The translations under genes were made by a program, and so were the position numbers. Below, piece by piece: positions 5,189 to 63,024 of a stretch of 64,000 nucleotides of DNA. The notes beneath the pieces were generated by a model that made no database searches, was not told where the DNA came from, and saw only the letters and a program-made list of their open reading frames with translations. Within the stretch, counting starts at the first letter, position 1, and every line of letters begins with the position of its first letter. Source of the stretch: an uncultured Alphaproteobacteria bacterium (GTDB lineage Bacteria > Pseudomonadota > Alphaproteobacteria > RF32 > CAG-239); assembly GCA_947588655.1 (NCBI GenBank), contig CANPYS010000001.1, forward strand, positions 6,391-70,390. Direction: 5' to 3'.

Positions 5189-5446
5189 ATTTAATCTCCA
5201 TAAATAGTTAAAAAATGCCACTTTGATGAAAGGTGGCAGGAAGTAAGAATCTATTTACGGAATAGTGTAGTATATTGGTTATAACAACCTATTTTACTAC
5301 CTTCCTGCCCTAGGCAAAAAGGTAGTGTTTTACATCTGTTTTTACAGATAACCGTAAAGAGGATTCTTGACCCCATATCAGGTATCGCCTGATACAAGGT
5401 TAGATTATCCAAAATATAATAGAAAGTCAAGGTTTAAAATAAAAAA

Positions 5447-5483
5447 AAGAGCCTTCTGTTGCTAAGCGGCTCTCAAGCTCCAC
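5447..5483 (-). terminator. rho-independent terminator oriented for a minus-strand transcript coming from the repeat region
   Basis: Plus strand reads AAAAAAAAGAGCCttctgttgctaagcGGCTCT. The minus-strand reading is a GC stem followed by a T8 run. Confidence 0.45.
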
Positions 5484-5690
5484 TTGTGGCAAACCAATGC
5501 CTCAAGAATTAAGTTTATTGCTTTCGCCTAAATTAAGCAGCGATTGCAACAGGTGCAAAATTATCATTTGCATTCATTTATTTTGAACCGGTAACGGTGG
5601 TTTCTCGCCGAACACAACATCTATCTTTACTGTTGTCCTGTCAAACCTATTTCGCCCCCTACGAAAATGTGCTAAAGCGCTTTCATGCTT

Positions 5691-5937
5691 GGGATTTTTT
5701 CGCTCATTTACGCCTTTTGTAAACTTCGCTCAAAAATCCCTGTGCAGCAAAGCACTTTATCCCATTTTCAACAGGCACCGTGCTTGCTGCCTTTCATACT
5801 TGGAATTTTTTCGCTCATTTACCCATTTTGTAAACTTCGCTCAAAAATCCCTGCGTAGCAAAGACCTTCTCCGCTTTCTTAAGGTCTTAGGGTTTTTGTT
5901 GTTTACGCCTTTTGTAAACTTCGCTCAAAAATCCCTT
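5691..5937. repeat. three tandem imperfect ~50-85-bp units, each an internal palindrome GGGATTTTTT...AAAAATCCC
   Basis: Units at 5691-5740, 5802-5851 and 5890-5937 share ...ttttttcgctcatttacSccttttgtaaacttcgctcaaaaatccct... Flanks are also similar (ctttcatRcttgg / tgYgYagcaaag). Extra hairpin AAGACCTT...AAGGTCTT at 5860-5888. Confidence 0.8.
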
Positions 5938-6220
5938 TAATTGGTGGAGGCGCCGGGTACTGCCCCCGGGTCCAATACACCTATTCCATAGTGTTTTTCG
6001 TGTCAAAGTCGGTTGCCCGACTATTTCTATTATATCTCTTAAACAAAAGAAAGCAAGCTTTTTATTAAAAAACTATTCTTTTGTTTGTTTCAATTCATCT
6101 TTTTAATGTATCCGCTATCTATTCGGTTATATCATTTTGACCGATGTTAGCTCTGTTTTGAGGTATATATTTTTTTTGCTTTCAATCATTTGGCGTCAAA
6201 GTTGCAGTTGAGGAAAATTG

Positions 6221-25768: not shown

Positions 25769-26275
25769 GAATCGCGTTTCATAAGCTAGGAAAAGTAAAG
25801 AATTTACTTTATCGTCACTCACAAGAGTTTGCTATAACTGATGGTTAGGGAATGATAAGTAACACTTTCACCTTGTTTGGGTGAATTTGGATTTTTAGAT
25901 TAGGCATTGGAACAAAACAGGTGGAGATTGTGTAGCACTCTCCGCCTGTACTTCTATTTGTGACTTTTAGATTTAACTGAGCAAGAGAATATATAAAAAG
26001 CACTAAGAATCAATAACTTATTAACAAAACGTATGCAAAAAAAAGTAGAGGTTAAAAAACAACAATTACTTTTGTTGTTTTTTTTGCTCTTCTTGCTCGT
26101 AAGTGTTGCGATGAACGCAAAACTAACTCGCTTCGGTCACCGCTCTGTAACGCTTGCTTTGGCGCCTATCGGCGTCTTGCAAGCTAACACTCGCGTTATC
26201 TCGCCCAAAAAACACCAATTACTTTTGGTGTTTTTTGGGCTCTACGCCTCAGAATGACGCAAATATTACCATTAA

Positions 26276-26543
26276 AATCAACAACTTATCAACAAAATGC
26301 ATGCAAAAAAAGGTACCTTTAAATGTGCATTTTGTCAAGCAAAAAATTTTGAGATATTTCAAAAGGTTATTTTCTTGATGAAATGTGCATTTAAACGTAC
26401 GTTTTTTTGAGAAGATTCTCAAAGGTCATCCTGAACTCGTTTCAGGATCTCATAAAAAAAGATGCTGAAACAAGTTCAGCATGACATTTGGGGCGTTCAG
26501 CATGACGATTCGGATGGAGAACTTTATAATTAAGGAGTAAAGA
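26276..26543 (+). promoter_or_regulatory. conserved ~250-bp upstream cassette of paralog family (copy 1)
   Basis: AAATGTGCATTT at 26321-26332 and 26381-26392. TGAGAAGATTCTCA. Hairpin arm1 26424-26453 / A7 / arm2 26461-26485. TGACGATTCGG. RBS TAAGGAG. Confidence 0.75.
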
Positions 26544-27593
26544 ATGAAGTACGTTTTATTTTTAGTTATGGTTTTGTTTTCAAATCAGGCGGTGGCGCTG
26601 AATTGTGAAAAGCAACCGACATGTGAGGAGTTAAATTATTCCAAAGAAGATGATCCACAATGCGCCGATGACGGCTATATCTTATGTCCGTTTGACTTTT
26701 CCTATAAAAAATGTTTACAGCCTGATTGTGAAAAATTAGGTTTTACATCATCTGAAAAATCAGGTTGGTGTTCTGAAATTATTACTTGTCCGCAAGATTC
26801 TTCTTATACGGCTTGCAACTGTCTTAAGCCACGTTGCAACATCGGCGATGTGTTGTATGCGGACAGCTCTTGTGGCGATGTCAAAGATTACAGCGAAGAT
26901 AAAGTTGCGGTTGGTGTGGTTTATTACACAAACTGCGATGGTGGTGGCAAGGTGATTAGTCTTAAAGATTTAACGCTTGATTCAAACTATGTTTTTCACC
27001 CAACAGAGCCTTTTGGCAACACCGCTCTTTACAAGTTTCCTTGGGGACTTTCTGGCGTAACTGTTCCAGGCTTGAAATATAAGTGGGCTACTAATGAACA
27101 ATTCTTGCTCGCTCTTCAAACAAGAGATCCTGACTTTTTCAACGGCGAAAAAGATACGCAAACTTTGATTAATTTCAAGAAAGACTCTTGCTCTTATGAT
27201 GAAGGCACAAAAGGATATGCTGAGTATTGCGTGGCGACGGCGGCTTTGGCGGCGCATCAATTTTATCCGCTTGGCGTTGAGCCAAACAATACGATTGTCG
27301 GCGCAGGGCGTTGGTATTTGCCCTCTCTTGGCGAGCTAACCGAACTTTATGGCTATGATTATGACCAAGTTACGACATGGGATACTGGAAAAACGGGCAA
27401 AACAAAAGAAAAAGTCACTCAGACGCTTACAACGCTTGAAGGCAAAGCGGAACCTTTAAAAAATATTGAATACTGGGCTTCAATTGAATACTCTGGAGAT
27501 ATTGCTTATGAATTGAAAGCTGACGGTTCTATCAGCAAATATTATAAAAAAGATCCGCACTGCGCTGTCCGCGCCAGTTTGAACTTTCGGTAA
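26544..27593 (+). CDS. secreted Cys-rich paralog P1: conserved N-module plus DUF1566/Lcl-C-like C-terminal domain
   Basis: Signal peptide ...QAVA|LNCE. N-module NCEKQPTCEELNYSKEDDPQCADDGYILCPFDFSYKKCLQPDCEKLGFT. C-terminal WYLPSLGEL, YWASIEY and ...HCAVRASLNFR match DUF1566-type motifs. Confidence 0.8.
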   Translation: MKYVLFLVMVLFSNQAVALNCEKQPTCEELNYSKEDDPQCADDGYILCPFDFSYKKCLQPDCEKLGFTSSEKSGWCSEIITCPQDSSYTACNCLKPRCNIGDVLYADSSCGDVKDYSEDKVAVGVVYYTNCDGGGKVISLKDLTLDSNYVFHPTEPFGNTALYKFPWGLSGVTVPGLKYKWATNEQFLLALQTRDPDFFNGEKDTQTLINFKKDSCSYDEGTKGYAEYCVATAALAAHQFYPLGVEPNNTIVGAGRWYLPSLGELTELYGYDYDQVTTWDTGKTGKTKEKVTQTLTTLEGKAEPLKNIEYWASIEYSGDIAYELKADGSISKYYKKDPHCAVRASLNFR

Positions 27594-27636: not shown

Positions 27637-27831
27637 CAAAACCAGCTTGCAGTTTTTCCTTTTTAACACAAATGATGACGGCGGTTATTCAGCGGGACAC
27701 AGGCAAAAGAGCCTCCTTGCCTTCTTTTTGTCTTCCGGCACATTGTTTGCCGAAATTTGGCGTAAAATTATGCTGAGCGCGGTAGAACCCTAAAAAATTC
27801 AAGATTTTTTGAAGCCTAAAATTTTATAAAA

Positions 27832-28102
27832 TTCAAGAATTTATCAACAAAATGTGTGCAAAAAAAGGTACCTTTAAATGTGCATTTTGTCAAGCAAAAA
27901 ATTTTGAGATATTTCAAAAGGTTATTTTCTTGATGAAATGTGCATTTAAACGTACGTTTTTTTGAGAAGATTCTCAAAGGTCATCCTGAACTCGTTTCAG
28001 GATCTCATAAAAAGAGATGCTGAAACAAGTTCAGCATGACTTTTGGGGTCGTTTCAGGATGACGATTCGGATGGGAGGACTTTTTTATTTAAGGAGTAAA
28101 AA
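27832..28102 (+). promoter_or_regulatory. conserved upstream cassette (copy 2)
   Basis: Near-identical to 26276-26543 including both hairpins and palindromes. Confidence 0.75.
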
Positions 28103-29029
28103 ATGAAGTACGTTTTAATTTTAATAGCAATTTTGTTTTCAAGTCAGGCGGTGGCGCTGAATTGTGAAAAGCAACCAACCTGCGAGGAGTTAAATTATTC
28201 CAAGGAAGACGATCCTCAATGTGCTGAGGACGGTTATATTCTCTGTCCGTTTGACTTTTCCTATAAAAAATGTTTACAGCCTGATTGTGAAAAATTAGGC
28301 TTTACACAATCGGATAAATCATTATGGTGCAATGAAATTGCTTCCTGTCCGTTCAACGCCTCTTACACGCTTTGTAATCGCAAAGCCGTGCAATGTAAGG
28401 TTGGCGATGTGTATTACGCAGATGACACTTGCGGTTCTTCCAATAATCTGGACACTACTAAAATTCCGGTCGGCGTTGTGTTTTATGTGACAGCTGACGG
28501 ACGTCACGGTCGCGTTTTGGCTTTTGATGAGTTCCAAGGAGCCTACAGCGCAATGAATTCAATCAGCGCCGCCTTACCTTTGTTTACCTGTGAACAAGTG
28601 TTGGACGGTTTGAAAAAAGGAAATCCGGATTTATATGATGGTCAAGCGCAAACCCAAAAAGTTGCCGCGCTTGATTCGCAAAGTGCCGCCGCCAAAGCTC
28701 TTGAATATTATCCTCAAGAAATTGACCCTGATACACCTTACACCGGCAAAGGAAACTGGTATTTGCCAACACTTGGCGAGTGGGAGTGGCTTTATGACCA
28801 TGAATTTATAGACAAATGCCCGATTTCATCAGGTGGAAATAATTACGCCAACATTCCTATTGTACCTGTCTTAAAAAAGCTTGGAAAGAGCGGCATGCGG
28901 ACAGACCGTTTTTGGTCGATTAACTTATTTTCATCTAAACAAGCGCTTTATTTTGGCACCACTTACGGGGATATAGATTCCAAACTTCTGCTTTATCAAT
29001 ATTATATTCGTCCGATTATGAAATTTTAA
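28103..29029 (+). CDS. secreted Cys-rich paralog P2
   Basis: First ~95 aa about 90% identical to P1. Divergent middle. C-terminal WYLPTLGEWEWLY, FWSINLF and ...YYIRPIMKF. Confidence 0.8.
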   Translation: MKYVLILIAILFSSQAVALNCEKQPTCEELNYSKEDDPQCAEDGYILCPFDFSYKKCLQPDCEKLGFTQSDKSLWCNEIASCPFNASYTLCNRKAVQCKVGDVYYADDTCGSSNNLDTTKIPVGVVFYVTADGRHGRVLAFDEFQGAYSAMNSISAALPLFTCEQVLDGLKKGNPDLYDGQAQTQKVAALDSQSAAAKALEYYPQEIDPDTPYTGKGNWYLPTLGEWEWLYDHEFIDKCPISSGGNNYANIPIVPVLKKLGKSGMRTDRFWSINLFSSKQALYFGTTYGDIDSKLLLYQYYIRPIMKF

Positions 29030-30602: not shown

Positions 30603-32900
30603 ATGCATCAAAATAAAAATCCGTTCGGGGTGAAAATTTTACTTTCCTATGAGGAGCTTGAGCGCGATACCGCGGCGGCGCGCGCGGTTCGGCATTTGCA
30701 GACCGATTTGGCAGATGATGATACGGAAATTATTGTCGCAGAACATTTAGAAGACGCTCGCGCTATTTTTGCAAGCGACGCCGGCATTCAATGTGTGTTG
30801 ATGGGCCTAGAATGTCAGTATTGCTCCAACACTTATGAGGTTTTGGATGTTCTTCGGGCGCAAAATCCGACCGTGCCGATTTTTTTGATGTCAAGCCGCA
30901 ATATGGCCTCGCAAATTCCGACTTCTGCGCTTGAAAAAGTGAGCGATTTTATTTGGCTTTTGGAAGATACCACCGATTTTATTTCAGGACGAATCCGCGC
31001 CGCGATTGAGCGTTATCGTTCCTTTATCCTGCCGCCGATGTTTAAGGCATTGGCACGGTTTGCCAAAATTCATGAATATTCGTGGCACACCCCGGGGCAT
31101 ACAGGCGGAACGGCGTTTTTGAAATCTGCCGTCGGACGCGACTTTTTTAATTTTTTCGGCGAACAGGCGTTTCGTTCCGATCTTTCCATTTCCGTTGGCG
31201 AGCTTGGCTCTATGCTTGACCATACTGGTCCTATCGGGGAAAGCGAAAAATATATGGCGCGTGTGTTTAATTCTACCCGCAGTTATCATGTTACCAACGG
31301 TTCGTCCACCTCTAACCGCATTATCTTAACGGCAAGTGTGACACGTGATGAAATTTGCTTGTGTGATAGAAATTGTCACAAATCGGTAGAGCATGCGATG
31401 ACGCTTTCAGGCGCTATCCCGACTTATTTAGTTCCGACCCGCAACCAATACGGCATTATCGGCCCGATTTTGCCCGAGCGTTTAACGCCCGAGGCCGTTA
31501 AGCAGGCCATTGATGAAAACCCGCTTGTGAGCGAGCGCATTGATCATCAGCCCAAGCATGCCATTATCACAAACTCCACTTATGATGGCTTGTGTTATAA
31601 TGTTACGCAAGTGCGCGACTTGTTAGGGCAAAGTGTTGACCGCTTGCATTTTGACGAGGCTTGGTACGGATATGCGCGCTTTAATCCGATTTATGAGGGG
31701 CGTTATGCGATGTGTTGCAATCCGCAAACTTATGATAAATCGCAACCAACTGTTTTTGCCACACAATCCACGCACAAGCTTTTGGCGGCCTTCTCGCAAG
31801 CCTCTATGATTCATGTGTTGGAAGGGCGCAACCCGATTGACCATGTCCGCTTTAACGAATCGCTGATGATGCACTCGTCCACATCGCCGCTTTATCAGAT
31901 TATTGCCTCTAATGATGTGAGCGCGGCAATGATGGATAACGGAGGTGGCAAAACCTTGACCGATATTTCCATTCGTGAAGCGATTGATTTCAGAAAAACA
32001 GTGGCGCGAATCCATAAAGAATATGGCGATAATGATGATTGGTTCTTTAATATTTGGCAACCGGATCAGGTTCGTATCCCCGAAACGGGTGAAAAAGTGC
32101 CGTTTTATGAAGCGCCTGACGACCTTTTGGCGACTATGCCCGATTGTTGGGTTTTGCACCCTGATGAAGCTTGGCACGGTTTCGGCGCTATTGCAGATGG
32201 TTATTGCATGCTTGATCCGATTAAAGTTTCAGTCACAACCCCCGGCGTGATGCCTGATTCATCGCTTGCCGATTGGGGCATTCCGGCGGCGCTTTTAACG
32301 GCTTATTTGGATAATAAGGGCATTATTGTTGAAAAGACGACCGATTTTACCATTCTGTTCCTCTTCTCAATGGGTGTGACAAAAGGGAAATGGGGCACGC
32401 TCTTAAACGCTCTCTTTGCCTTTAAAGATGATTATGACAACAATGTGCCGCTTTCGCGCATCATGCCCAAAATTTACCACGCAGATGAAACAAAATATGC
32501 TTCCATGGGGTTGCGTGATTTAAGTGTGGAAATGTTTGAGGCGATGAAATCTTTGGGAACAACCAAAGCCCTTTCGGCGGCGTTTTCCGTCCTTCCGCAT
32601 CCGGATATGACGCCTGTTGAAACGCATGAGCAACTTGTTAAAAATAATGTGGAATCGCTTACGCTTGATGAAATGGAGAATCGCACCGTTGCCACCGGCG
32701 TTGTTCCATATCCGCCAGGAATCCCGATGTTAATGCCTGGTGAAAATGCAGGCCCTTCAGACGGTCCGCTTCTCGGTTATCTCAAAGCCTTGGAAGCCTT
32801 TGATCAAAGATTCCCTGGGTTTGGGCATGATACGCATGGGGTGGAAGTAGTGGCTGGTTCCGGCAAATACCGCATTCTATGTTTAAGAAAAGGCGTATAA
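30603..32900 (+). CDS. adiA: biodegradative arginine (Orn/Lys/Arg family) decarboxylase, fold-I PLP enzyme with N-terminal wing domain
   Basis: 765 aa. Blocks WLLEDTTDFISGRIRAAIERYR, KIHEYSWHTPGH, DRNCHKS, RLHFDEAWYGYARFNPIY and IPYPPGIPML align best with AdiA. PLP-Lys in ...STHKLL... Confidence 0.65.
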   Translation: MHQNKNPFGVKILLSYEELERDTAAARAVRHLQTDLADDDTEIIVAEHLEDARAIFASDAGIQCVLMGLECQYCSNTYEVLDVLRAQNPTVPIFLMSSRNMASQIPTSALEKVSDFIWLLEDTTDFISGRIRAAIERYRSFILPPMFKALARFAKIHEYSWHTPGHTGGTAFLKSAVGRDFFNFFGEQAFRSDLSISVGELGSMLDHTGPIGESEKYMARVFNSTRSYHVTNGSSTSNRIILTASVTRDEICLCDRNCHKSVEHAMTLSGAIPTYLVPTRNQYGIIGPILPERLTPEAVKQAIDENPLVSERIDHQPKHAIITNSTYDGLCYNVTQVRDLLGQSVDRLHFDEAWYGYARFNPIYEGRYAMCCNPQTYDKSQPTVFATQSTHKLLAAFSQASMIHVLEGRNPIDHVRFNESLMMHSSTSPLYQIIASNDVSAAMMDNGGGKTLTDISIREAIDFRKTVARIHKEYGDNDDWFFNIWQPDQVRIPETGEKVPFYEAPDDLLATMPDCWVLHPDEAWHGFGAIADGYCMLDPIKVSVTTPGVMPDSSLADWGIPAALLTAYLDNKGIIVEKTTDFTILFLFSMGVTKGKWGTLLNALFAFKDDYDNNVPLSRIMPKIYHADETKYASMGLRDLSVEMFEAMKSLGTTKALSAAFSVLPHPDMTPVETHEQLVKNNVESLTLDEMENRTVATGVVPYPPGIPMLMPGENAGPSDGPLLGYLKALEAFDQRFPGFGHDTHGVEVVAGSGKYRILCLRKGV

Positions 32901-33042
32901 CCGCTCATCTAGAGGCGTTTTTACGGGTCTCGGGAAATTCACGTACCTCTTTTGTACGCTGGAATTTCCCTCGCCCTTAAAACACCTCTATCTAAACGGT
33001 TCTCCGCCTTTCCACGGCTTGGGAGAAAATTAAGAAAACGTC

Positions 33043-33078
33043 CATTTCAAAATGGACGTTTTTTGTTTTTGTGCTTAC
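33043..33078 (+). terminator. rho-independent terminator after adiA (repeat copy also at 42757-42790)
   Basis: AAAACGTCCATTTCAAAATGGACGTTTTTTGTTTTTG. Confidence 0.7.
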
Positions 33079-33109
33079 GAATAAAAAAATCAAGTAAAAT
33101 CAAAGAAAT

Positions 33110-33377
33110 GTCTCAAAAAAACGTACGTCATTATTTACAACTTGTCAAGTGAAAAAAATTGGGTTTTTCAATAACTTATTTTTGCAAAAAAATGCACAAA
33201 AAAACGTACGTTTTTTTGAGATAGGGAAAAACTTTCTCTCAAACGTCATGCTGAGCTTTGGTGCGTTAGCACCATTCGCGAAGCATCCAGGAACAGTATA
33301 GCTAATTTGTTGTCCTGGACTCTTCGCCTGCAGCTCAGAGTGACGATTCGGCAGAGTTCGTAATTAAGGAGAAAAAA
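33110..33377 (+). promoter_or_regulatory. degenerate copy of the upstream cassette (copy for P3)
   Basis: Retains AAACGTACGTTTTTTTGAGA core, GTCATGCTGA, TGACGATTCGG and TAAGGAG. Central hairpins replaced. Confidence 0.55.
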
Positions 33378-34562
33378 ATGAAGTATGTTTTATTTTTGAT
33401 GTTGGTATTGTTTTCAAGTCAGGCGGTGGCGCTTAATTGTGAAAGGCAACCGACTTGTGAAGAATTGGGTTATTCTACGCAAAATAATCCAAACTGTTTA
33501 GATGACGGTTATTTAATTTGCCCGTTTGATTCTAATTATAAGAAATGCGTCAACTTTAGTTGCGAATCGCTCGGGTTTACGCTATCCGATAAATCGGGCT
33601 GGTGCGCTGAAACAATAGAATGTAAAGGTGATAAAAGTTATACTCTTTGCAAAACATCTTGTATTGCTTGGGATTCTGATACGCTTTCCATGCTTGCCGA
33701 ATCGGGCAAATGTAAGCTCATCACGATGAAAAATGACATCACGCTTTCAGAAGATAAGCTCAACGTTTCCGCAAACACCATGATTGACGGTGGTGGGCAT
33801 ACGCTTCATGTGTCGGCGAATATAAACCCGATAGATTTACAAGCGAACAGCGGTCTCAAAAATCTTAACTTGGATGTAAAGGGTACCGGCGTTAAACAAG
33901 GTTATATTCTTCTTCCGCAAGGTAATGGAGTTCTCTTTGAAAACCTGACGGTTGCGGTTTCTGGCATGACACAAAAATATAATGCAGGGCTTGTTGGTAT
34001 GTCAAATTTTTCTGCCGAATTTAGAGGTCAAACAAATCTGAATTCAAATTATTATAGTGTCTTTTTCAATAGTGATCATATTAACTTTACAAATGCGCAA
34101 GCCACTCTTTTTGCCGCTAATGATTTAATGAAAAGTTCCAACGTCACACTTCACAATTCCACACTTGATATTACAATGAGTACTGTTCTCATGACGCGCT
34201 CTAAATTAACGCTTTACAATTCCACACTCCATTTTACAGGCACACATTTGTTCTGGACAGGAAGTTCAACGGTAGAAAATGTCTTGACAATCGGGGAGGG
34301 TTCCACCGCGGTGATTAAAGTTTCAAACGGTCTGAATATGGAAAGTACTAGAAAATCAAATTTTGTGTTAAGCGGGACAGCAGATGCGCCAGCAAAGTTA
34401 GAAATTACGACACCTGATAAAAATAATAATGAAACATATATCACAGCTCATAACATAACGGATACGCTTGTCTTAAATAACAAGACATATCATCCAACGC
34501 AAACAGCTACAACGCTTATATCGGATGTTCCAAACTCAAGTTATTGGCGCGCTGTGCCATAG
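33378..34562 (+). CDS. secreted Cys-rich paralog P3: conserved N-module fused to parallel beta-helix-like C-terminal domain
   Basis: N-terminal 95 aa homologous to P1/P2/P4/P5 (NCERQPTCEELGYS...CPFD..YKKC). Remainder has repetitive NxT/beta-strand periodicity (LHNSTLDIT..., LYNSTLHFT...) and lacks the DUF1566 motifs. Confidence 0.7.
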   Translation: MKYVLFLMLVLFSSQAVALNCERQPTCEELGYSTQNNPNCLDDGYLICPFDSNYKKCVNFSCESLGFTLSDKSGWCAETIECKGDKSYTLCKTSCIAWDSDTLSMLAESGKCKLITMKNDITLSEDKLNVSANTMIDGGGHTLHVSANINPIDLQANSGLKNLNLDVKGTGVKQGYILLPQGNGVLFENLTVAVSGMTQKYNAGLVGMSNFSAEFRGQTNLNSNYYSVFFNSDHINFTNAQATLFAANDLMKSSNVTLHNSTLDITMSTVLMTRSKLTLYNSTLHFTGTHLFWTGSSTVENVLTIGEGSTAVIKVSNGLNMESTRKSNFVLSGTADAPAKLEITTPDKNNNETYITAHNITDTLVLNNKTYHPTQTATTLISDVPNSSYWRAVP

Positions 34563-42000: not shown

Positions 42001-42560
42001 TCAATATTTTGGTGATTGATACCGGCGTTTATTCCAATACCGGCGGTCAACAGTCCAAGGCAACCCCGATGGGCGCTTCCGCCAAATTTGCCACGGCAGG
42101 TAAAGAATTACCCAAGAAAGATTTGGGCATGATTGCCATGTCGTACGGCAATGTTTATGTGGCGCAAGTTTCCTTTGGTGCAAACGACATGCAGTTGATT
42201 AAAGCCTTAAACGAGGCGGAAGCTTATGACGGTCCGTCTATCGTGATTGCATACTCACACTGCATTGCGCAGGGCTTTAACCTTGCCGAAGGTGTGGAAC
42301 ACCAAAAGAACGCTGTTGAAACAGGCTCATGGCCTTTGTATCGCTACAATCCGGACAACGTCAAAGAAGGCAAAGCGCCTTTGATGTTAGACTCCAAAGC
42401 ACCCTCTCGGCCGCTTTCGGACTATATGTCTAATGAAACGCGTTTCCAGATTGTCAACAAAGCCAACCCCGAGCGTTATGAAAAGCTTTTGAACAAGGCA
42501 CAAGAGAATGTAAAGGAAAAACGTGCATTGTTAGAGCATCTTGCTCGGAAAGACGTATAA
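39006..42560 (+). CDS. nifJ: pyruvate:ferredoxin (flavodoxin) oxidoreductase, single-polypeptide PFOR
   Basis: 1184 aa. Two ferredoxin-type motifs CIQCGKCSLVCPHG and CTGCGLCVSACPA. TPP-binding GGDGW...D. Domain order I-VI as in NifJ/Por. Confidence 0.9.
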   Translation: MSDVKMKMMDANEAAASVAHRMNEVCVIYPITPSSPMGEWADAWSAAKQKNLWGVIPEVQEMQSEAGAAGACHGSLQAGSLTTTFTASQGLLLMIPNMYKIAGELFPFVMHVAARSLAYHALSIFGDHSDVMGCRQTGFAMLCSNSVQEAHDFAAIAQTSTLRSRVPFMHFFDGFRTSHEIKKISLLSDDDLRGMLDGVDYTFNAKHALRPEKPVIRGTAQNPDVFFQGREASNPYYQKVEGIVQEEMDKFAKISGRSYHVVDYFGAPDAEEVIVIMGSGGETVEEAITYLNNQGAKLGVMKVHLYRPFPVQSFLKVLPKSVKAVSVLDRTKESGSIGEPLYLDVVATLTQAFAHGQISAMPKIVGGRYGLSSKEFTPGMVKAVFDNGLSANPINGFSVGITDDVSKTSLAFDDSIDTEPQDVVRAVFFGLGADGTVGANKNSIKIIAEDAGKYGQGYFVYDSRKSGSMTTSHLRFSDHPIKSAYLISKADFVACHQFPFMNKVDILKIAKPGATFLLNAPYTADEVWDKLPIEVQQQIIEKKLQFYTINAVEVARATGMGQRINTVMQTCFFAISNILPKDEAIAQIKAAIKKTYSKKGDAIVQKNFEAVDASLEHLHKVEYPSTVTSTFHRQEPVPADAPEFVKRLTGELIADRGNELPVSAFAEVADGTWPTGTTQFEKRCIATEIPVWDPEVCIQCGKCSLVCPHGVIRMKVASDEELKDAPATLKRADYKGKEFAGKKFMLQISPEDCTGCGLCVSACPARNKIDALKKAINMDHIEKHLAEQKANWKFFEKLPYVKRTEVEKNLPKTTQLIQPLFEYSGACAGCGETPYIKLVTQLFGDRMVVANATGCSSIYSGNLPTTPYTKDEKGHGPAWANSLFEDNAEFGLGMRFSIDQQTSVAKTLLEGLKDQIGADLVTQILGNPQKTDVEVEAQRGYVEALRQKLATISSSEAKHLNELADYLIRKSVWIFGGDGWAYDIGFGGLDHAIASGKNINILVIDTGVYSNTGGQQSKATPMGASAKFATAGKELPKKDLGMIAMSYGNVYVAQVSFGANDMQLIKALNEAEAYDGPSIVIAYSHCIAQGFNLAEGVEHQKNAVETGSWPLYRYNPDNVKEGKAPLMLDSKAPSRPLSDYMSNETRFQIVNKANPERYEKLLNKAQENVKEKRALLEHLARKDV

Positions 42561-42756
42561 CCACGAGGGAATGCGTCTAATGGGCGCCTTTTGGAAATGC
42601 GTCTAGCTGGCACCTAGAGCAATTTAAGGGGCAAAAGTGTCCTCACGTACGCTTTTAGTACGCTGTGGTACTTTTGCCCCTTAAATCACTCTATCTGCAC
42701 ACGCTATCCGCATTTCCGAGGACTATGATTAAAAATAAGGATTCGATATTAAAAAA

Positions 42757-42790
42757 ACGTCCATTTCAAAATGGACGTTTTTTGTTGCTT
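42757..42790 (+). terminator. rho-independent terminator after nifJ (same hairpin as 33043-33078)
   Basis: AAAACGTCCATTTCAAAATGGACGTTTTTTGTTG. Confidence 0.65.
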
Positions 42791-42799
42791 TAATATAGC

Positions 42800-42908
42800 A
42801 ATTTAAAGGTACCTTTAAATTGATGCGATTCGACAGCCACCGAACGTCATGCTGAACTTGTTTCAGCATCTCTTTGATGAGATCCCGAAACAAGTCCGGA
42901 ATGACAAA
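42800..42908 (-). repeat. orphan reverse-oriented fragment of the paralog upstream cassette (double-hairpin part)
   Basis: GTCATGCTGAACTTGTTTCAGCATCTCTTTGATGAGATCCCGAAACAAGTCCGGAATGAC is the reverse complement of the arm1-A-arm2 element. No paralog gene follows on the minus strand. Confidence 0.6.
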
Positions 42909-42921
42909 GAAAAAACAAGAA

Positions 42922-43387
42922 AATCAATAACTTATCATCAAAACATGTGCAAAAAAAGGTACCTTTAAATGTGCAATTTGTCAAGAAAAATTTTTGAGAT
43001 TTTTCAAAAGGTTATTTTCTTGATAAAACGTGCATTTAAACGTACGTTTTTTTGAGAAATGTGTATAGCGGCACATCTAAAGCCGTTTTTTCAAGTTCGG
43101 AAAATTCACGTACGTCTATGTACGCTCAAATTTTCCTCACTTTTGAAACGACTTTATCTGCACCACTCTCCACATTTCTTTGGCTAGAACAAGAGAGGGA
43201 AAGTCTCTCTAAAATGTCATTTCCAAACTCGTTTCGGGATCTCATAAAAAGAGATGCTGAAACAAGTTCAGCATGACATTTGGGGTGTTTTGGGGATGAC
43301 GATTCGGAAGAGTTTGTTGTCCTAGACTCTTCGCTGACGCTCAGAGTGACCATGACGGCGGAAATAGTGACGAACAAGGAGGAAAGA
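42922..43387 (+). promoter_or_regulatory. upstream cassette (copy for P4), interrupted by ~150 bp of unrelated repeat sequence
   Basis: First half 42922-43050 matches the cassette (AAATGTGCAATTT..., AACGTGCATTTAAACGTACG). 43055-43205 differs (shares gaaaattcacgtac...tacgct with 32926-32990). Arm2/TGACGATTCGG/RBS resume at 43205-43387. Confidence 0.6.
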
Positions 43388-44506
43388 ATGAGGTATGTTT
43401 TATTTTTAATAGCAATTTTGTTTTCAAGTCAGGCGGTAGCGCTGAATTGTGAAAAGCAACCAACCTGTGAAGAATTAAATTATTCTAAAGAAGATGATCC
43501 GCAATGTGCCGATGACGGCTATATCTTATGTCCGTTTGACTTCTCATACAAAAAATGTGCACAGCCTGATTGCTCAAAAATGGGCTTTACACACTCCAAT
43601 AAATCCGCTTGGTGTGAAGAAATTATTTATTGCCCGCAAGATAACACATATTCTCTTTGCAAAACACTCCAACTGCAATGTGAAATCGGCGATGTCTTTT
43701 TTGCCGACCGCACCTGTGGCAAAGCTTCCGATTGGTCAAAAGAAAGTGGCAAAATCCCTGTGGGCATTGTTTATTATGTGGAAGAGGGCGGGCGCCACGG
43801 ACGCGTGATAAACCTCAAAAACCTTTGGCGCGGTTCGGATTATCTTTTTCATGCTGATAGCCCTTACAGTGGCTTAAGTGATTACATGCCTTGGGGCTAT
43901 CAAAATTATGACCTTACATCTCTTAAAAACTATGATGGCTCGCCTGAAATTTTGAATGCTTTGCAAACGCGCGATCCCGATTTGTACAAAGGCGAAGAAA
44001 ACACAAAGCTGATTTTAGAAGCCAAAGCTCCGGATTGTGCTTATCAAAAGAATACCAAAGAATACGCTCAGTATTGTGTGCCGACGGCGGCTTTGGCGGC
44101 ACATCAATTTTATCCGCCTGAAGCCGGTGCGGATAACCTTTATGTCGGGCAGGGTAAGTGGTATTTGCCTTCATGGGGCGAGTGGATGGAAGTTTATGGC
44201 TATGATAATAGTCAAATTGTGTGTGGCGGACCTCAAAATTGTACGACGGCAGATTCAGCAAATAATGAGGGAACGTCAGGCGCTGTCGGTGATCATAAAA
44301 AATTAATTGAAACTGCGCTTCAAACACTTCAAGAAAAAGGCGCTGGTGCCGAAAAACTTGTCAGAGGTCCTTTTTGGAGTTCCACGGAATATGATTCATT
44401 CAGTGCGCGTACGTTTTATATGGACTCAGGCCATCGTTCAGCATACAATAAAAAGAATGCTGATAATAATTATCATGCGTACGTTCGCGCAAGCCTGAAG
44501 TTTTAA
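43388..44506 (+). CDS. secreted Cys-rich paralog P4 (DUF1566/Lcl-C-like C-terminus)
   Basis: AAGGAGG RBS, MRYVLFLIAILFSSQAVA|LNCE. C-terminal KWYLPSWGEWMEVYGY, FWSSTEY and ...YHAYVRASLKF. The longer ORF-track start at 43280 has no RBS. Confidence 0.8.
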   Translation: MRYVLFLIAILFSSQAVALNCEKQPTCEELNYSKEDDPQCADDGYILCPFDFSYKKCAQPDCSKMGFTHSNKSAWCEEIIYCPQDNTYSLCKTLQLQCEIGDVFFADRTCGKASDWSKESGKIPVGIVYYVEEGGRHGRVINLKNLWRGSDYLFHADSPYSGLSDYMPWGYQNYDLTSLKNYDGSPEILNALQTRDPDLYKGEENTKLILEAKAPDCAYQKNTKEYAQYCVPTAALAAHQFYPPEAGADNLYVGQGKWYLPSWGEWMEVYGYDNSQIVCGGPQNCTTADSANNEGTSGAVGDHKKLIETALQTLQEKGAGAEKLVRGPFWSSTEYDSFSARTFYMDSGHRSAYNKKNADNNYHAYVRASLKF

Positions 44507-44759
44507 AAAGGCTATGGAACGCGTCTAGCGGACACCTAGAGCAATTTAATGGGCAAAACTGTCCTCACGTACGTCTTATGGTCTAACTCGTTTCGGTCTT
44601 GCTCGTAAGTTTTGCGTAAAACGCAAACTAACTTGTTTCGGTCACCGCTCTGTAACGCTTGCCGTCAAATCCGATTTTTTCTGGCGCTTTTTGTTGTTTC
44701 TATTCGCCTCATTATCTGTCTTTCCTAAGGTTTACTAACGTCCGTCATGACCAAAATTT

Positions 44760-61670: not shown

Positions 61671-62744
61671 TTAAAATGTTGTCATCGGGCGGATTCTATA
61701 GCTCCTATCTGTCCATTCTATAGCTGTTTTATAACTTCCAAGATTAAATGTCCAAAATGTTCTGCTATCAAAGAAAGTGGAAGAATAGTAATAGTTGGCA
61801 AGGGATTGCGCTTTCCCTTTTTGTTGAAGCCTAGATAATGTGGTGTTGATTTGATCAAGGTAAACTTGTTTGTAATCAGGCTGACGATTATATTCATTCT
61901 CCCAAACAAGTGTGGTATAACCTGTTCCAACAACATCTATCCATTCGCCTAAGGAAGGTACATACCATTTGCCTTTGCCCAAGTGCGCATCATCTGCCGA
62001 AACGCCTTCAGGATAAAAAGCCATAGCGGCTCTTGGCCCAGGGGTGTCGCAATACTCAGCATAACGAAGTGTGCCTTTCTTATCTGAAGGTTGGCAACCA
62101 TCGCCAATGGTTTGCGGAGTTTCAACAAAGGCGGCTTTTGTGGCGCTTAAGCCGTCCCAAAGCCAAGTGTCATGCTTTGTAAAGGCTGATAAAATGCTAT
62201 TTGTATTATAGGTGTGCGTTCCTAATCTTTCATAATGGTAACCACCGAATGGTATTTCTTTAATACTTCCGCCAAAGGGATTCTGTTCGTCAAAGGTGTA
62301 GTCATCTTGAAGTGTTAAATCGTTTAATGCAAGGATTTTGCCGTGCGTTCCCTCGGTGTTTACGGTTACCACCACGCCGACAGGTATTTTAGAACCATTT
62401 GAGTCATAATCTTTGGCATAACCGCAAGTCCCATCCGCATAATAAACATCACCAATTTCGCAAAGGGCTTTACATGCCGTGTAGGTTTTATCGTTCGGAC
62501 AAAAGGCAAGCTTGCCACACCAATCCGATTTTTCAGACTTTGTGTAACCCATTTTTTCACAATCAGGCTGTAAACATTTTTTATAAGAGAAGTCAAACGG
62601 ACAAAGAATATAACCGTCCTCAGCACATTGTGGATCATCTTCTTTGGCATAATTTAACTCCTCACAGGTTGGTTGCTTTTCACAATTCAGCGCCACTGCT
62701 TGCTTTGAAAATAAAATCATCATTAAAAATAAAACGTACTTCAT
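61671..62744 (-). CDS. secreted Cys-rich paralog P5 (DUF1566/Lcl-C-like C-terminus)
   Basis: TAAGGAG RBS, MKYVLFLMMILFSKQAVA|LNCEKQPTCEELNYAKEDDPQCAEDGYILCPFDFSYKKCLQPDCEKMGYT. KWYVPSLGEWIDV, YYSSTFFD, ...YRIRPMTTF. Confidence 0.8.
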   Translation of the reverse strand: MKYVLFLMMILFSKQAVALNCEKQPTCEELNYAKEDDPQCAEDGYILCPFDFSYKKCLQPDCEKMGYTKSEKSDWCGKLAFCPNDKTYTACKALCEIGDVYYADGTCGYAKDYDSNGSKIPVGVVVTVNTEGTHGKILALNDLTLQDDYTFDEQNPFGGSIKEIPFGGYHYERLGTHTYNTNSILSAFTKHDTWLWDGLSATKAAFVETPQTIGDGCQPSDKKGTLRYAEYCDTPGPRAAMAFYPEGVSADDAHLGKGKWYVPSLGEWIDVVGTGYTTLVWENEYNRQPDYKQVYLDQINTTLSRLQQKGKAQSLANYYYSSTFFDSRTFWTFNLGSYKTAIEWTDRSYRIRPMTTF

Positions 62745-63014
62745 TTTTTCCTCCTTATTTACAGACTCCACCATCCGAATCGTCATACTGAAACGATCCC
62801 AAATGTCATGCTGAACTTGTTTCAGCATCTCTTTTTATGAGATCCTGAAACGAGTTCAGGATGACCTTTGAGAATCTTCTCAAAAAAACGTACGTTTAAA
62901 TGCGCATTTCATCAAGAAAATAACCTTTTGAAAAATCTCAAAAAAAAATCCTTGACAAATTGCGCATTTAAACGTACCTTTTTTTGCACACGTTTTGATG
63001 ATAAGTTGTTGTTT
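62745..63014 (-). promoter_or_regulatory. upstream cassette (copy for P5, minus orientation)
   Basis: Reverse complement matches copies 1 and 2. Here both 12-mers are the perfect palindrome AAATGCGCATTT. Confidence 0.75.
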
Positions 63015-63024
63015 TAAAATAAAA

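What the first reader, a model, noticed from the sequence alone, without database searches (positions are those of the whole stretch)
42570..44680. Mosaic of short intergenic repeat families linking the nifJ, adiA and paralog loci
Several different 30-100-bp elements recur. (a) cttgctcgtaagt.ttgcg...acgcaaa.ctaact.g.ttcggtcaccgctctgtaacgcttgc at 26090-26165 and 44595-44672. (b) gcgtctagc.g.cacctagagcaatttaa.gggcaaaa.tgtcctcacgtacg at 42588-42652 and 44517-44578. (c) gaaaattcacgtac...ttgtacgct...aatttcc at 32926-32990 and 43086-43150, with a variant at 42640-42700. (d) the terminator acgtccatttcaaaatggacgt at 33046 and 42760. (e) the A/T-flanked hairpins caacaattacttttgttg at 26048-26088 and 26208-26240. 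The same pieces flank the 3' ends of nifJ, adiA and P4, and element (c) interrupts the P4 cassette. Such patchwork implies repeated recombination among these loci, or small mobile elements shuffling promoters and terminators. It could drive rearrangement or copy-number change of the paralog family.
Basis: seen in the sequence. Interest (0 to 1): 0.5.

Follow-up and report, generated by a model that had tools for sequence, protein, structure and literature searches.

The report
Dispersed palindromic repeats, not local recombination
The repeated pieces are real, but the main one is a copy of a roughly 125-base hairpin-forming "selfish" repeat found many times over in dozens of uncultured gut Alphaproteobacteria and related to a repeat in E. 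coli, so it is a new member of a familiar class and not evidence of recombination between these genes.

Summary
All five repeats exist at about the stated coordinates and are far beyond chance. They are not five families and they do not link these loci specifically.

- **Elements (b) and (c)** are one family. It is a ~125-135-nt imperfect palindrome ("PE"), with three full copies, one half copy and two left-arm fragments, all on the + strand.
- **Distribution of PE.** It forms tandem arrays and sits in frame inside a HemW-like gene.
- **Properties of PE.** The arms keep pairing through compensatory changes. Copies start at or next to the upstream gene's stop codon. Orientation follows GC skew (82 sites versus 4).
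- **Relatives.** The apical motif recurs in a ~140-nt E. coli repeat (median 5 places per genome), including the published hairpin insertion in the GlnZ sRNA. A filled/empty hemE-nfi site there shows a duplicated TAA.
- **Elements (a) and (e)** form a separate ~155-nt, terminator-ended unit restricted to this lineage.
- **Element (d)**, a 60-nt hairpin and the promoter palindrome belong to the duplicated upstream cassette of a five-member paralog family.

Verdict: a MITE/ERIC/RPE-like repeat, a new member of a known kind. No mobilising enzyme was found.

The parts
32884..33019 (+). PE copy 1: a full palindromic element directly 3' of adiA. The adiA stop codon (32898-32900) is the conserved TAA inside the element's left arm (GGCGTA-TAA-CC).
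   Evidence: nhmmer 32884-33014, E 5e-30. RNA fold -52.4 kcal/mol, z -5.7. Stop-codon position.
42547..42588 (+). Two left-arm fragments of PE at the end of nifJ. Fragment 1 (42547-42562, GGAAAGACGTATAACC) supplies the nifJ stop codon at 42558-42560. Fragment 2 (42565-42588, GAGGGAATGCGTCTAATGGGCGCC) is identical, 24 of 24, to the left arm of the PE copy in L036.
   Evidence: Read from the sequence and compared with the L036 row of alignment A2.
42592..42717 (+). PE copy 2: a full element 3' of nifJ.
   Evidence: nhmmer E 5.6e-25. Fold -73 kcal/mol, z -11.9. Self-complementary over 42593-42717.
43054..43197 (+). PE copy 3 (palindrome 43054-43180 plus a short 3' tail), inserted between the promoter module and the 60-nt hairpin of P4.
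   Evidence: nhmmer E 6e-28. Filled versus empty comparison with P1, P2 and P5. Fold z -6.0.
44515..44579 (+). PE half copy (left arm plus apical CACGTACG) 3' of P4.
   Evidence: nhmmer model positions 6-71, E 7e-8. 87.7% identical to 42596-42659.
26085..26245 (+). Complete (a)+(e2) unit: stem-loop 1, long stem-loop 2, then an intrinsic-terminator hairpin (26203-26240). The (e1) hairpin at 26054-26087 precedes it.
   Evidence: Alignment with five copies from L005 (two in tandem), L028, L056 and L093. Consensus fold of 45 pairs, 5 with compensatory changes. No Rfam match.
44597..44662 (+). Truncated copy of the (a) unit (stem-loop 1 and the conserved CTAACT..GTAACGCTTGC stretch), directly after the PE half copy.
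   Evidence: 89.6% identical to 26091-26157; alignment A3.
33029..33067 (+). Element (d): terminator-like hairpin (AAAACGTCCATTTCAAAATGGACGTTTTTT) between PE copy 1 and the P3 promoter.
   Evidence: 97% identical to 42748-42786 (D19). The twin at 42752-42783 is called terminator-like.
42748..42786 (+). Element (d), second copy, between PE copy 2 and the P4 upstream region.
   Evidence: (D19).
42840..42906 (+). 60-nt hairpin module (hp60), an inverted extra copy lying left of the P4 promoter.
   Evidence: 94% and 86% complementary to 43248-43283 and 43221-43249 (I13 and I22). Fold z -4.6.
43213..43283 (+). hp60 in its usual place just upstream of a paralog gene (P4). Equivalent copies lie at 26419-26491, 27974-28046 and 62799-62873 (- strand).
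   Evidence: D4, D6; fold z -6.05. Also found upstream of the paralogs in L083 and L097.
42921..43058 (+). Palindromic promoter module of the paralog family (P4 copy). Other copies are at 26272-26413, 27826-27968, 33080-33221 and 62877-63018 (- strand).
   Evidence: D2, D3, I3, I5, I15; 87-91% identity; 42950-43054 is self-complementary.
43388..44506 (+). P4, one of five paralogs (also 26544-27593, 28103-29029, 33378-34562 and 61671-62828 on the - strand). The proteins are Cys-rich with a hydrophobic N-terminus that looks like a signal peptide (not tested).
   Evidence: Translation; repeat family D1; no Pfam match for any of the five.

Best explanation
The 'mosaic' is a pile-up of three unrelated kinds of repeat in the spacers around two members of a paralog family.

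**1. The palindromic element (PE).** Elements (b) and (c) are copies of a dispersed, non-coding, ~125-135-nt imperfect palindrome.
- It behaves like a miniature mobile element of the ERIC / RPE / Correia type.
- It has many copies per genome in uncultured gut and rumen Alphaproteobacteria.
- It lands at or next to TAA/TAG, typically the stop codon of the upstream gene. It can supply that gene's last codons and its stop codon, as for adiA and nifJ here.
- It stacks into head-to-tail arrays and can sit in frame inside genes.
- Its arms stay complementary through compensatory change, and its apical motif TCACGTAC-N-GTACGCT is fixed.
- Once transcribed with the neighbouring gene it should form a long hairpin. 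This has been shown experimentally only for the E. coli relative inside GlnZ, which RNase III cleaves.
- How it moves is inferred, not shown. I favour trans-mobilisation by an unidentified enzyme that duplicates TAA, with orientation filtered or set by the replication strand.

**2. Elements (a) and (e)** form a ~155-nt, terminator-ended unit. It may be a small-RNA gene or a second repeat, and it is restricted to this lineage.

**3. Element (d), the 60-nt hairpin and the promoter palindrome** are parts of the duplicated upstream cassette of the paralog family. They reflect ordinary local duplication.
For: Shown by tool results:
- **One family.** Alignment and profile hits.
- **Dispersal.** Of these, 98 come from 41 Alphaproteobacteria MAG assemblies, with up to 28 near-full copies in the sampled loci of one MAG. 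My own back-of-envelope estimate, not a tool result, is that only a handful of chance matches would be expected.
- **Tandem arrays** with 117-127-nt spacing (L029, L059, L067).
- **In-frame insertion.** One and a half to two units, about 41 aa each, sit in a HemW-like radical-SAM ORF in six loci, against one empty homologue.
- **Covariation.** 980 cells changed on both sides versus 360±18 in shuffles; score 0.399 versus 0.149; slid controls at most 0.163.
- **Stop-codon link.** The upstream ORF ends 40-62 nt before the core in 39 of 74 copies. TAA/TAG peaks at offsets -43/-42 and -60 to -53.
- **Strand bias.** 82 independent sites are co-oriented with local GC skew against 4. Only 68% of ORFs are co-oriented (p = 3e-10).
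- **Insertion in P4** relative to P1, P2 and P5.
- **E. coli relatives.** The central ~45 nt match the PE profile at E 3e-9 to 4e-5. There is a median of 5 places in each of 5426 genomes.
- **Filled versus empty site in E. coli.** The hemE-nfi copy is present in 314 genomes. The empty site reads CACCGCTAAGGAGCG and the filled site CACCGCTAAG[AGCC...GGCTCTAAG]GAGCG.
- **Published RNA evidence.** The glnA-glnL copy is the long, RNase III-cleaved stem-loop called a 'REP insertion' in GlnZ (bioRxiv 10.1101/2022.04.01.486790).
- **Not a curated RNA family.** No Rfam match.
- **The (a)/(e) unit**.
- **Collinearity of the cassette**.
Against: - No transposase or other mobilising gene was found near any copy. 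Clustering of neighbouring ORFs gave only pilin-like, ABC-F and HemW-like families.
- The outermost 8-9 bp of the palindrome differ from copy to copy, which is unlike the conserved terminal repeats of classical MITEs.
- A systematic search for target-site duplications around the gut-Alphaproteobacteria copies was no better than permuted flanks: 13 with at least 4 nt observed versus 8.7 expected.
- The reverse-complement strand folds better in 111 of 115 copies. This is not what a simple 'hairpin in the mRNA 3' UTR' function predicts.
- All window copies lie next to paralog genes P3 and P4, so some copies may have spread by duplication of the cassette and not by transposition.
- Hits outside the Alphaproteobacteria were selected by the pattern itself, so their homology is only moderately supported at 17-26 bits.
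Confidence: 0.72

Rival explanations
1. Local history only. The shared pieces arose by recombination, gene conversion or duplication among the adiA, nifJ and paralog loci of this window.
For: - The upstream regions of P3 (32889-33378) and P4 (42595-43388) are collinear: PE, terminator (d), promoter, gene.
- (d) is 97% identical between them.
- The upstream 220 nt of P1, P2 and P5 are 92-96% identical, which is more than their coding regions at 78-87%.
- All PE copies in the window sit beside P3 or P4.
Against: - The two PE copies next to the near-identical (d) terminators are only ~67% alike and belong to different subfamilies. Each has closer relatives (83-89%) at unrelated loci of the Lapin-021 MAG.
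- PE and the (a)/(e) unit occur in many other contexts and genomes.
Confidence: 0.15
2. PE is primarily a selected cis-acting RNA or DNA structure and not a parasite. It could be a 3'-UTR hairpin that sets mRNA stability or RNase III processing, a direction-specific terminator or insulator placed right after stop codons, or both. Its spread would then be secondary.
For: - Position locked to the stop codon.
- Strong covariation.
- A-run before and T-run after the hairpin in the consensus.
- Published RNase III cleavage of the E. coli relative within a functional sRNA.
- Orientation the same as the upstream gene at 72 of 82 sites.
Against: - The mRNA-sense strand is the worse-folding one: median -42 versus -57 kcal/mol, and G-U pairs 212 versus 536.
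- In the window the adiA and nifJ copies are followed by a separate canonical terminator.
- In-frame copies inside a coding gene, and arrays of up to five units, are hard to read as regulatory.
- Orientation tracks GC skew better than it tracks the neighbouring gene.
Confidence: 0.3
3. PE moves or is processed as a folded single strand. Candidates are a HUH/Y1 enzyme as for REP-RAYT and IS200/IS605, or a recombinase acting on one folded strand as for integron attC. The replication-strand bias would then be a direct footprint of the mechanism.
For: - 95% co-orientation with GC skew.
- When the neighbouring gene and the skew disagree, the skew wins: 10 sites with an opposed gene are skew-positive or neutral, against 2 skew-negative sites with a same-strand gene.
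- Strand-asymmetric pairing: conserved C-A in one strand equals G-U in the other, and a CT/TC loop equals tandem G-A.
- Variable but complementary outer stems.
- From my own knowledge, such strand biases are documented for IS200/IS605 and for attC arrays.
Against: - No Y1 or integrase gene was seen, though only 8-kb loci were available.
- The better-folding strand lies on the leading-strand template, the opposite of IS608-type elements.
- The E. coli filled site shows a direct duplication of TAA, which fits a staggered double-strand cut better.
- E. coli copies follow the replication rule in only 4 of 5 cases. Map positions there are from memory.
Confidence: 0.2
4. The P4 upstream region is an invertible promoter switch (phase variation). 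The inverted copies of the 60-nt hairpin at 42840-42906 and 43213-43283 would be the recombination sites.
For: The inverted arms are 94% and 86% complementary and flank the promoter module (I13 and I22). Multi-copy surface-protein families in gut bacteria often use invertons (my own knowledge).
Against: - The promoter module is itself a palindrome, and so is each hairpin.
- With the PE insertion removed, the whole region is symmetric about ~43000. This fits the remnant of a head-to-head duplication.
- No recombinase was found among the ten ORFs scanned.
- The other four paralogs have only one hairpin copy.
- No inverted variant could be looked for.
Confidence: 0.07

Closest known systems
The ~140-bp palindromic repeat of E. 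coli and other enterobacteria, exemplified by the 'REP sequence insertion' in the glnA 3'UTR sRNA GlnZ (Walling et al., bioRxiv 10.1101/2022.04.01.486790). It may be the family called RSA in the K-12 genome paper; that is from memory and unverified.
   Same: - Near-identical apical ~40 nt (AAATCCTCACGTAC-N-GTACGCTCCGGTTT), detected by the PE profile.
- Similar length and a long imperfect hairpin.
- Variable but complementary outer stems.
- The left end abuts TAA/TAG, often a stop codon.
   Different: - Low copy number: median 5 per genome, against dozens or more in the MAGs.
- The arms outside the apex are not alignable.
- There is no consistent strand asymmetry in folding.
- Both orientations relative to transcription occur.
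ERIC / IRU (enterobacterial repetitive intergenic consensus, 127-bp imperfect palindrome)
   Same: - Same size class, intergenic and co-transcribed.
- The hairpin is kept by compensatory changes, and intragenic copies are known (review PMC10969869).
- The centre of ERIC (TCACTTAC..TGTAAGCTCC) resembles the PE centre (TCACGTAC..TGTACGCTCC), with what would be a compensatory T-A to G-C change. This rests on inspection of L120 only.
   Different: The PE profile does not detect an ERIC copy even at E <= 10 with filters off, so homology is not demonstrated. The host range is also different.
RPE (Rickettsia palindromic elements)
   Same: Alphaproteobacterial, ~100-150 bp and palindromic. They are found both between genes and in frame inside unrelated housekeeping genes, where they add a peptide segment (PMC10969869, compared).
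   Different: No RPE sequence was available to compare. The hosts here are free-living gut bacteria. PE is mostly at 3' ends of genes, whereas nearly half of the RPEs are intragenic.
Correia / NEMIS and other TIR-type bacterial MITEs
   Same: Short, non-coding, multi-copy and hairpin-forming in RNA. Correia and the E. coli relative of PE are both RNase III substrates.
   Different: Classical MITEs have conserved terminal inverted repeats and a defined target duplication. The termini of PE vary between copies, and no duplication was demonstrable in the gut-Alphaproteobacteria copies.
REP / BIME with RAYT transposases
   Same: Extragenic palindromes at 3' ends of genes, with variable stems, covariation and clustering.
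   Different: REPs are 20-40 nt with a conserved GTAG-type 5' tetranucleotide, and they alternate in orientation within BIMEs. PE is about four times longer and its arrays are head-to-tail. No RAYT gene was seen.

Membership tests
MITE (miniature inverted-repeat transposable element, classical definition) | Short (<~500 bp), non-coding, multi-copy and dispersed | tested here: met
   ~125-135 nt. 190 profile hits in 107 loci; 41 MAG assemblies.
MITE (miniature inverted-repeat transposable element, classical definition) | Conserved terminal inverted repeats matching a parent IS | tested here: not met
   The outermost stem is complementary within a copy but differs between copies: for example GC 35 / AU 30 / UA 14 at columns 17/165. 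No parent IS was found.
MITE (miniature inverted-repeat transposable element, classical definition) | Target-site duplication and filled/empty sites | tested here: inconclusive
   There is a clean duplication of TAA (at most CTAAG) at the polymorphic hemE-nfi site of the E. coli relative, and a possible GAGA at the P4 insertion. The test was not significant across 82 gut-Alphaproteobacteria copies.
ERIC / IRU | Sequence match to the ERIC consensus | tested here: not met
   The PE profile finds no hit in an ERIC copy (L120) at E <= 10. Only the central ~20 nt look alike by eye.
ERIC / IRU | ~127-bp imperfect palindrome in transcribed intergenic regions, with a structure conserved by compensatory change | tested here: met
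   Transcription itself was not tested.
RPE (Rickettsia palindromic elements) | In-frame insertion in unrelated protein-coding genes | tested here: met
   A HemW-like ORF carries 1.5-2 units in six loci, against an empty homologue. Only one gene family was seen.
RPE (Rickettsia palindromic elements) | Sequence similarity to one of the RPE families | not testable with these tools
REP / BIME-RAYT | 20-40-nt hairpin with a conserved 5' GTAG-like tetranucleotide, alternating orientation, and an associated RAYT gene | tested here: not met
   The element is ~125-135 nt and its arrays are direct with 117-127-nt spacing. No recurrent small transposase-like ORF lies next to the copies.
Rfam RNA families | Score at or above a family's gathering threshold | tested here: not met
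   No family hit at the PE or (a)/(e) positions. Only sub-threshold generic hairpin (miRNA-like) hits appeared.
Integron attC sites | R''/R' core sites (RYYYAAC / GTTRRRY) and ORF-attC cassette arrays next to intI | tested here: not met
   The left arm GTATAAC / GTCTAGC does not fit RYYYAAC. Copies follow ordinary housekeeping genes or form ORF-less arrays. intI was not searched for.
Invertible promoter (inverton) | Inverted repeats flanking a promoter, both orientations observed, and a recombinase | tested here: inconclusive
   Inverted repeats are present (I13 and I22). No second orientation could be examined, and no recombinase was found among the ten ORFs scanned.

The most novel reading that the evidence does not exclude
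PE, the E. coli GlnZ-type repeat and the hairpins found in Devosia, Paenibacillus, Cytobacillus and Desulfobacteraceae may form one ancient, cross-phylum superfamily. It would be defined by an invariant apical motif (TCACGTAC-loop-GTACGCTCCGG) recognised by a still-unknown, widely distributed protein. The element would act or move as a folded single strand, which would explain the strand-asymmetric G-U / tandem G-A pairing and the ~95% replication-strand bias. This would be a new mobilisation or recognition system, as opposed to one more MITE.
Probability: 0.15. Interest if true: 0.75.

Novelty: new member of a known kind. Interest (0 to 1): 0.42.

Why it matters
- **For this window.** The result removes the suggestion of special recombination between nifJ, adiA and the paralogs. 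The shared pieces are genome-wide repeats plus ordinary cassette duplication.
- **A large repeat family in a neglected clade.** It documents a large, apparently unnamed palindromic repeat family in a widespread, uncultured gut clade. The family rewrites gene 3' ends by supplying stop codons, inserts peptides into a housekeeping enzyme, and probably breaks MAG assemblies, since copies sit at contig ends.
- **An experimental handle.** The link to the hairpin inside the E. coli sRNA GlnZ connects the family to a system where RNase III processing has already been measured.
- **Clues to mechanism.** The stop-codon targeting, strand bias and strand-asymmetric pairing are quantitative and could be followed up in complete genomes.

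Tried and rejected
- **Exact-protein look-ups** of NifJ and P4, to find the same or sister strains, found nothing on record. Isolate polymorphism of this window therefore could not be checked.
- **Rfam**, at gathering and permissive thresholds, on the window, the two spacer regions and seven loci gave only generic hairpin noise.
- **Recurrent neighbouring ORFs.** A search for a transposase gave pilin-like paralogs, ABC-F ATPases, HemW-like genes and syntenic housekeeping genes, but no transposase.
- **Target-site duplication test** on 82 single copies was not significant, and my boundary calls were unreliable.
- **Viral contigs** gave one hit only, so the element is not phage-borne.
- **Metagenome scan for the (a) unit** gave two contigs from one project. 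Neither is close to the window and neither carries PE.
- **Plasmid search** with the PE consensus returned only chromosome-sized enterobacterial records mislabelled as plasmids. These led to the E. coli family.
- **ERIC homology** is not supported by the profile search.
- **Literature searches** for repeats in RF32-type gut Alphaproteobacteria, and for the old E. coli family names, found nothing usable.
- **Pfam** gave nothing for the five paralogs.
- **Mutation bias as the cause of the strand asymmetry** was considered and rejected. The G-rich leading strand carries the version with fewer G-U pairs, the opposite of what skew-driven mutation would give (inference).
Full report
**Observation.**
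- A self-comparison of the two spacers gives 26091-26157 versus 44597-44662 at 89.6% (E 7e-16).
- It gives 42596-42659 versus 44518-44582 at 87.7%, and 43051-43185 versus 32882-33019 at 73% over 138 nt.
- The terminator pair 33029-33067 / 42748-42786 is 97% identical.
- The core CACGTAC-N4-10-GTACG occurs three times, against none in 100 shuffles.
- The two A/T-flanked hairpins near 26.05 and 26.2 kb differ by a compensatory change.

**Elements (b) and (c) are one element.**
- Alignment of the sites in both orientations and folding show three full copies of a ~125-135-nt imperfect palindrome. Fold z-scores are -5.7, -11.9 and -6.0.
- A profile built later places them at 32884-33014, 42592-42717 and 43054-43180, with a half copy at 44515-44579. 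There is nothing else in the 64 kb. All copies are on the + strand.
- The adiA stop codon is the TAA inside the element's left arm (GGCGTA-TAA-CC).
- nifJ ends in a 16-nt left-arm fragment that supplies its TAA. A second 24-nt left-arm fragment follows, identical to the left arm of a copy in locus L036, and then the full element.
- The third copy is an insertion. P1, P2 and P5 read GTTTTTTTGAGAAGATTCTC where P4 has ~140 extra bases between its promoter module and a 60-nt hairpin.

**The element is dispersed well beyond this window.**
- A single scan of 185,579 species-representative genomes used a pattern taken from the core and right arm. By my own estimate only a few chance matches are expected.
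Of these, 98 come from 41 assemblies labelled uncultured gut, rumen or faecal Alphaproteobacteria, from human, deer, rabbit and other hosts.
- The window carries a permuted tmRNA and ~42% G+C, consistent with that clade.
- The nearest assembly is the rabbit MAG Lapin-021 bin60. It is 83% identical in DNA over 3 kb and 91.5% identical in protein for one ORF.
- That MAG has both PE subfamilies seen in the window, at unrelated loci, with 83-89% identity.
- Arrays of two to five units with 117-127-nt spacing are common.
- In six loci, 1.5-2 units lie in frame within a HemW-like radical-SAM gene, adding ~41 residues each. One homologue lacks them.
- In several MAGs labelled BRZ the element lies upstream of pilin-like paralogs at contig ends.
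- Only one viral contig matches.
- No Rfam family matches at any threshold.

**Structure.**
- In an alignment of 115 distinct copies, the invariant positions are the apical CACGTAC...GTACGCT and CTYTATCT. The search pattern itself required these.
- Almost every stem position covaries, including the outermost 8-9 bp. These differ between copies of one genome yet stay complementary.
- Against a 49-pair consensus, 980 cells have changes on both sides versus 360±18 in column shuffles. The covariation score is 0.399 versus 0.149, and at most 0.163 when partners are slid.
- The pairing is strand-asymmetric. The reverse complement folds better in 111 of 115 copies, with a median of -57.3 versus -42.2 kcal/mol. 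It has 536 G-U pairs against 212.
- The reason is that conserved C-A oppositions and a CT/TC internal loop on the gene-sense strand become G-U and tandem G-A on the other strand.
- Compositional skew would predict the opposite asymmetry, so I take this as a property of the element and not of mutation bias. That is an inference.

**Position and orientation.**
- Of 74 intergenic copies with a same-strand ORF upstream, 39 have that ORF's stop codon 40-62 nt before the core.
- The stop codon is either the conserved TAA/TAG of the left arm (seven cases, including adiA) or the first bases of the outer stem, or just before it.
- A second cluster at 150-200 nt is the second unit of arrays.
- TAA/TAG frequency peaks at offsets -43/-42 and -60 to -53, with a weaker rise just past the right end.
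- The element points the same way as the upstream gene at 72 of 82 independent sites.
- It agrees with local GC skew at 82 of 86 sites, whereas 68% of long ORFs do so (p = 3e-10).
- Where the gene and the skew disagree, the skew usually prevails.
- The two variables are correlated and the loci are only 8 kb long, so this favours a replication-strand effect without proving it.

**Relatives in E. coli.**
- A BLAST search of the PE consensus against plasmid records hit chromosome-sized enterobacterial entries over the apical 40 nt.
- Following these up showed a ~140-nt palindromic family present in all 5426 complete E. coli genomes, with a median of five places.
- The sites are between hemE and nfi, glnA and glnL, ucpA and cysP, pheM and pheS, and qseE and qseG.
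- The PE profile detects all five centrally, at E 3e-9 to 4e-5. It does not detect a canonical ERIC copy, whose centre only resembles PE by eye.
- The glnA-glnL copy lies inside the annotated sRNA GlnZ. A preprint describes it as a large 'REP sequence insertion' forming a long stem-loop that RNase III cleaves in vitro (10.1101/2022.04.01.486790).
- The hemE-nfi copy is polymorphic: 314 genomes carry it.
- Empty sites read CACCGCTAAGGAGCG. The filled site reads CACCGCTAAG-AGCCTGG...CCAGGCTCTAAG-GAGCG.
- This is an insertion at the hemE stop codon with duplication of TAA (at most CTAAG). It is direct evidence that this kind of element inserts, and that it targets TAA.
- In the gut-Alphaproteobacteria copies a general test for duplications was not significant.

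**The other pieces.**
- Elements (a) and (e) are one ~155-nt unit: a short stem-loop, a conserved single-stranded stretch, a long stem-loop and an intrinsic-terminator hairpin, with some compensatory changes.
- It is complete at 26085-26245 and truncated at 44597-44662. It is tandem in L005 and also present in L028, L056 and L093 of the Lapin MAG.
- It has no Rfam match and only two metagenome hits. It may be a small-RNA gene or a second lineage-restricted repeat.
- Element (d), the palindromic promoter module and the 60-nt hairpin are collinear parts of the upstream region of a five-member paralog family.
- The paralog proteins are Cys-rich with a hydrophobic N-terminus and have no Pfam match.
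- P4 has a second, inverted copy of the hairpin to the left of its promoter. With the PE insertion removed, the region is symmetric about ~43000.
- I read this as the remnant of a head-to-head duplication. An invertible switch cannot be excluded.

**Mechanism.**
- Shown: multi-copy dispersal; insertion relative to paralogous and orthologous empty sites; a preference for TAA/TAG and stop codons; maintenance of the hairpin; strand bias.
- Shown for the E. coli relative only: a TAA duplication, and an RNase III-sensitive RNA hairpin.
- Inferred: the gut-Alphaproteobacteria copies are mobilised in trans by an unidentified enzyme.
- Inferred: the stop-codon position reflects TAA targeting plus purifying selection.
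- Inferred: orientation is set or filtered by the replication strand.
- Unexplained: why the outer stems vary yet remain paired, and why the antisense strand is the better-paired one.

**Verdict.** The main element is a new member of the known class of bacterial palindromic intergenic repeats (ERIC, RPE, MITE-like). Its cross-phylum apical motif deserves follow-up.

Noticed in passing
window 5445-6060 (- strand): A permuted (two-piece) alphaproteobacterial tmRNA gene matched end to end over 616 nt against a 355-position model. Its interior holds 111-nt direct repeats (5680-5757, 5791-5868, with a third partial copy at 5902-5936), so a tandem repeat has expanded inside the tmRNA locus.
   Followed up: no
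window 26272-26493, 27826-28048, 62798-63018: The ~220-nt upstream regions of paralogs P1, P2 and P5 are 92-96% identical. Their coding regions are only 78-87% identical. This suggests gene conversion or strong constraint on the promoter and 5' leader.
   Followed up: partly
window 26419-26491, 27974-28046, 43213-43283, 62799-62873; also L083:5437-5508 and L097:7287-7366: The 60-nt hairpin just upstream of each paralog can fold as one long hairpin or as two short ones (CCTGAAC..GTTTCAGG and GCTGAAAC..GTTCAGC). One half scores as a terminator on the strand pointing away from the gene. It could be a leader or insulator element.
   Followed up: partly
L084:3077-4441, L009:6855-8000, L052:1-988, L091, L010, L022 versus L062:6305-7390: A HemW-like radical-SAM gene carries 1.5-2 in-frame palindromic-element units (peptide ...SRTSLYAENFSPLVSTLSS...) in several gut Alphaproteobacteria species but not in one homologue.
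   Followed up: yes
L002, L012, L018, L020, L027, L032, L044, L068, L078, L087, L107: In the MAGs labelled BRZ the element sits upstream of a multi-copy family of prepilin-type (pilin-like) genes, often at contig ends. This suggests these repeats break short-read assemblies.
   Followed up: partly
E. coli hemE-nfi spacer (L112:219-374 filled; L121 and L122 empty): About 6% of complete E. coli genomes (314 of 5426) carry a 147-bp palindromic insertion exactly at the hemE stop codon, 10 nt before nfi. The rest have the empty site. This is a natural pair for testing the effects of such elements.
   Followed up: yes
L043, L082 (Devosia), L006, L038 and L050 (Paenibacillus camelliae), L045 (Cytobacillus), L007 and L070 (Desulfobacteraceae), L072, L030, L081: Hairpins with the same apical motif and CTYTATCT box occur in distant phyla, sometimes several per genome. 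In all ten tested, the reverse-complement strand folds better. Homology is only moderately supported, because the search pattern itself selected them.
   Followed up: partly
window 42950-43054, 62881-62986, 33111-33221: The paralog promoter module is itself an inverted repeat, carrying TTGACA/TTGATA-like boxes on both strands and ACGTACGT motifs. It may be a bidirectional promoter or a symmetric operator.
   Followed up: no
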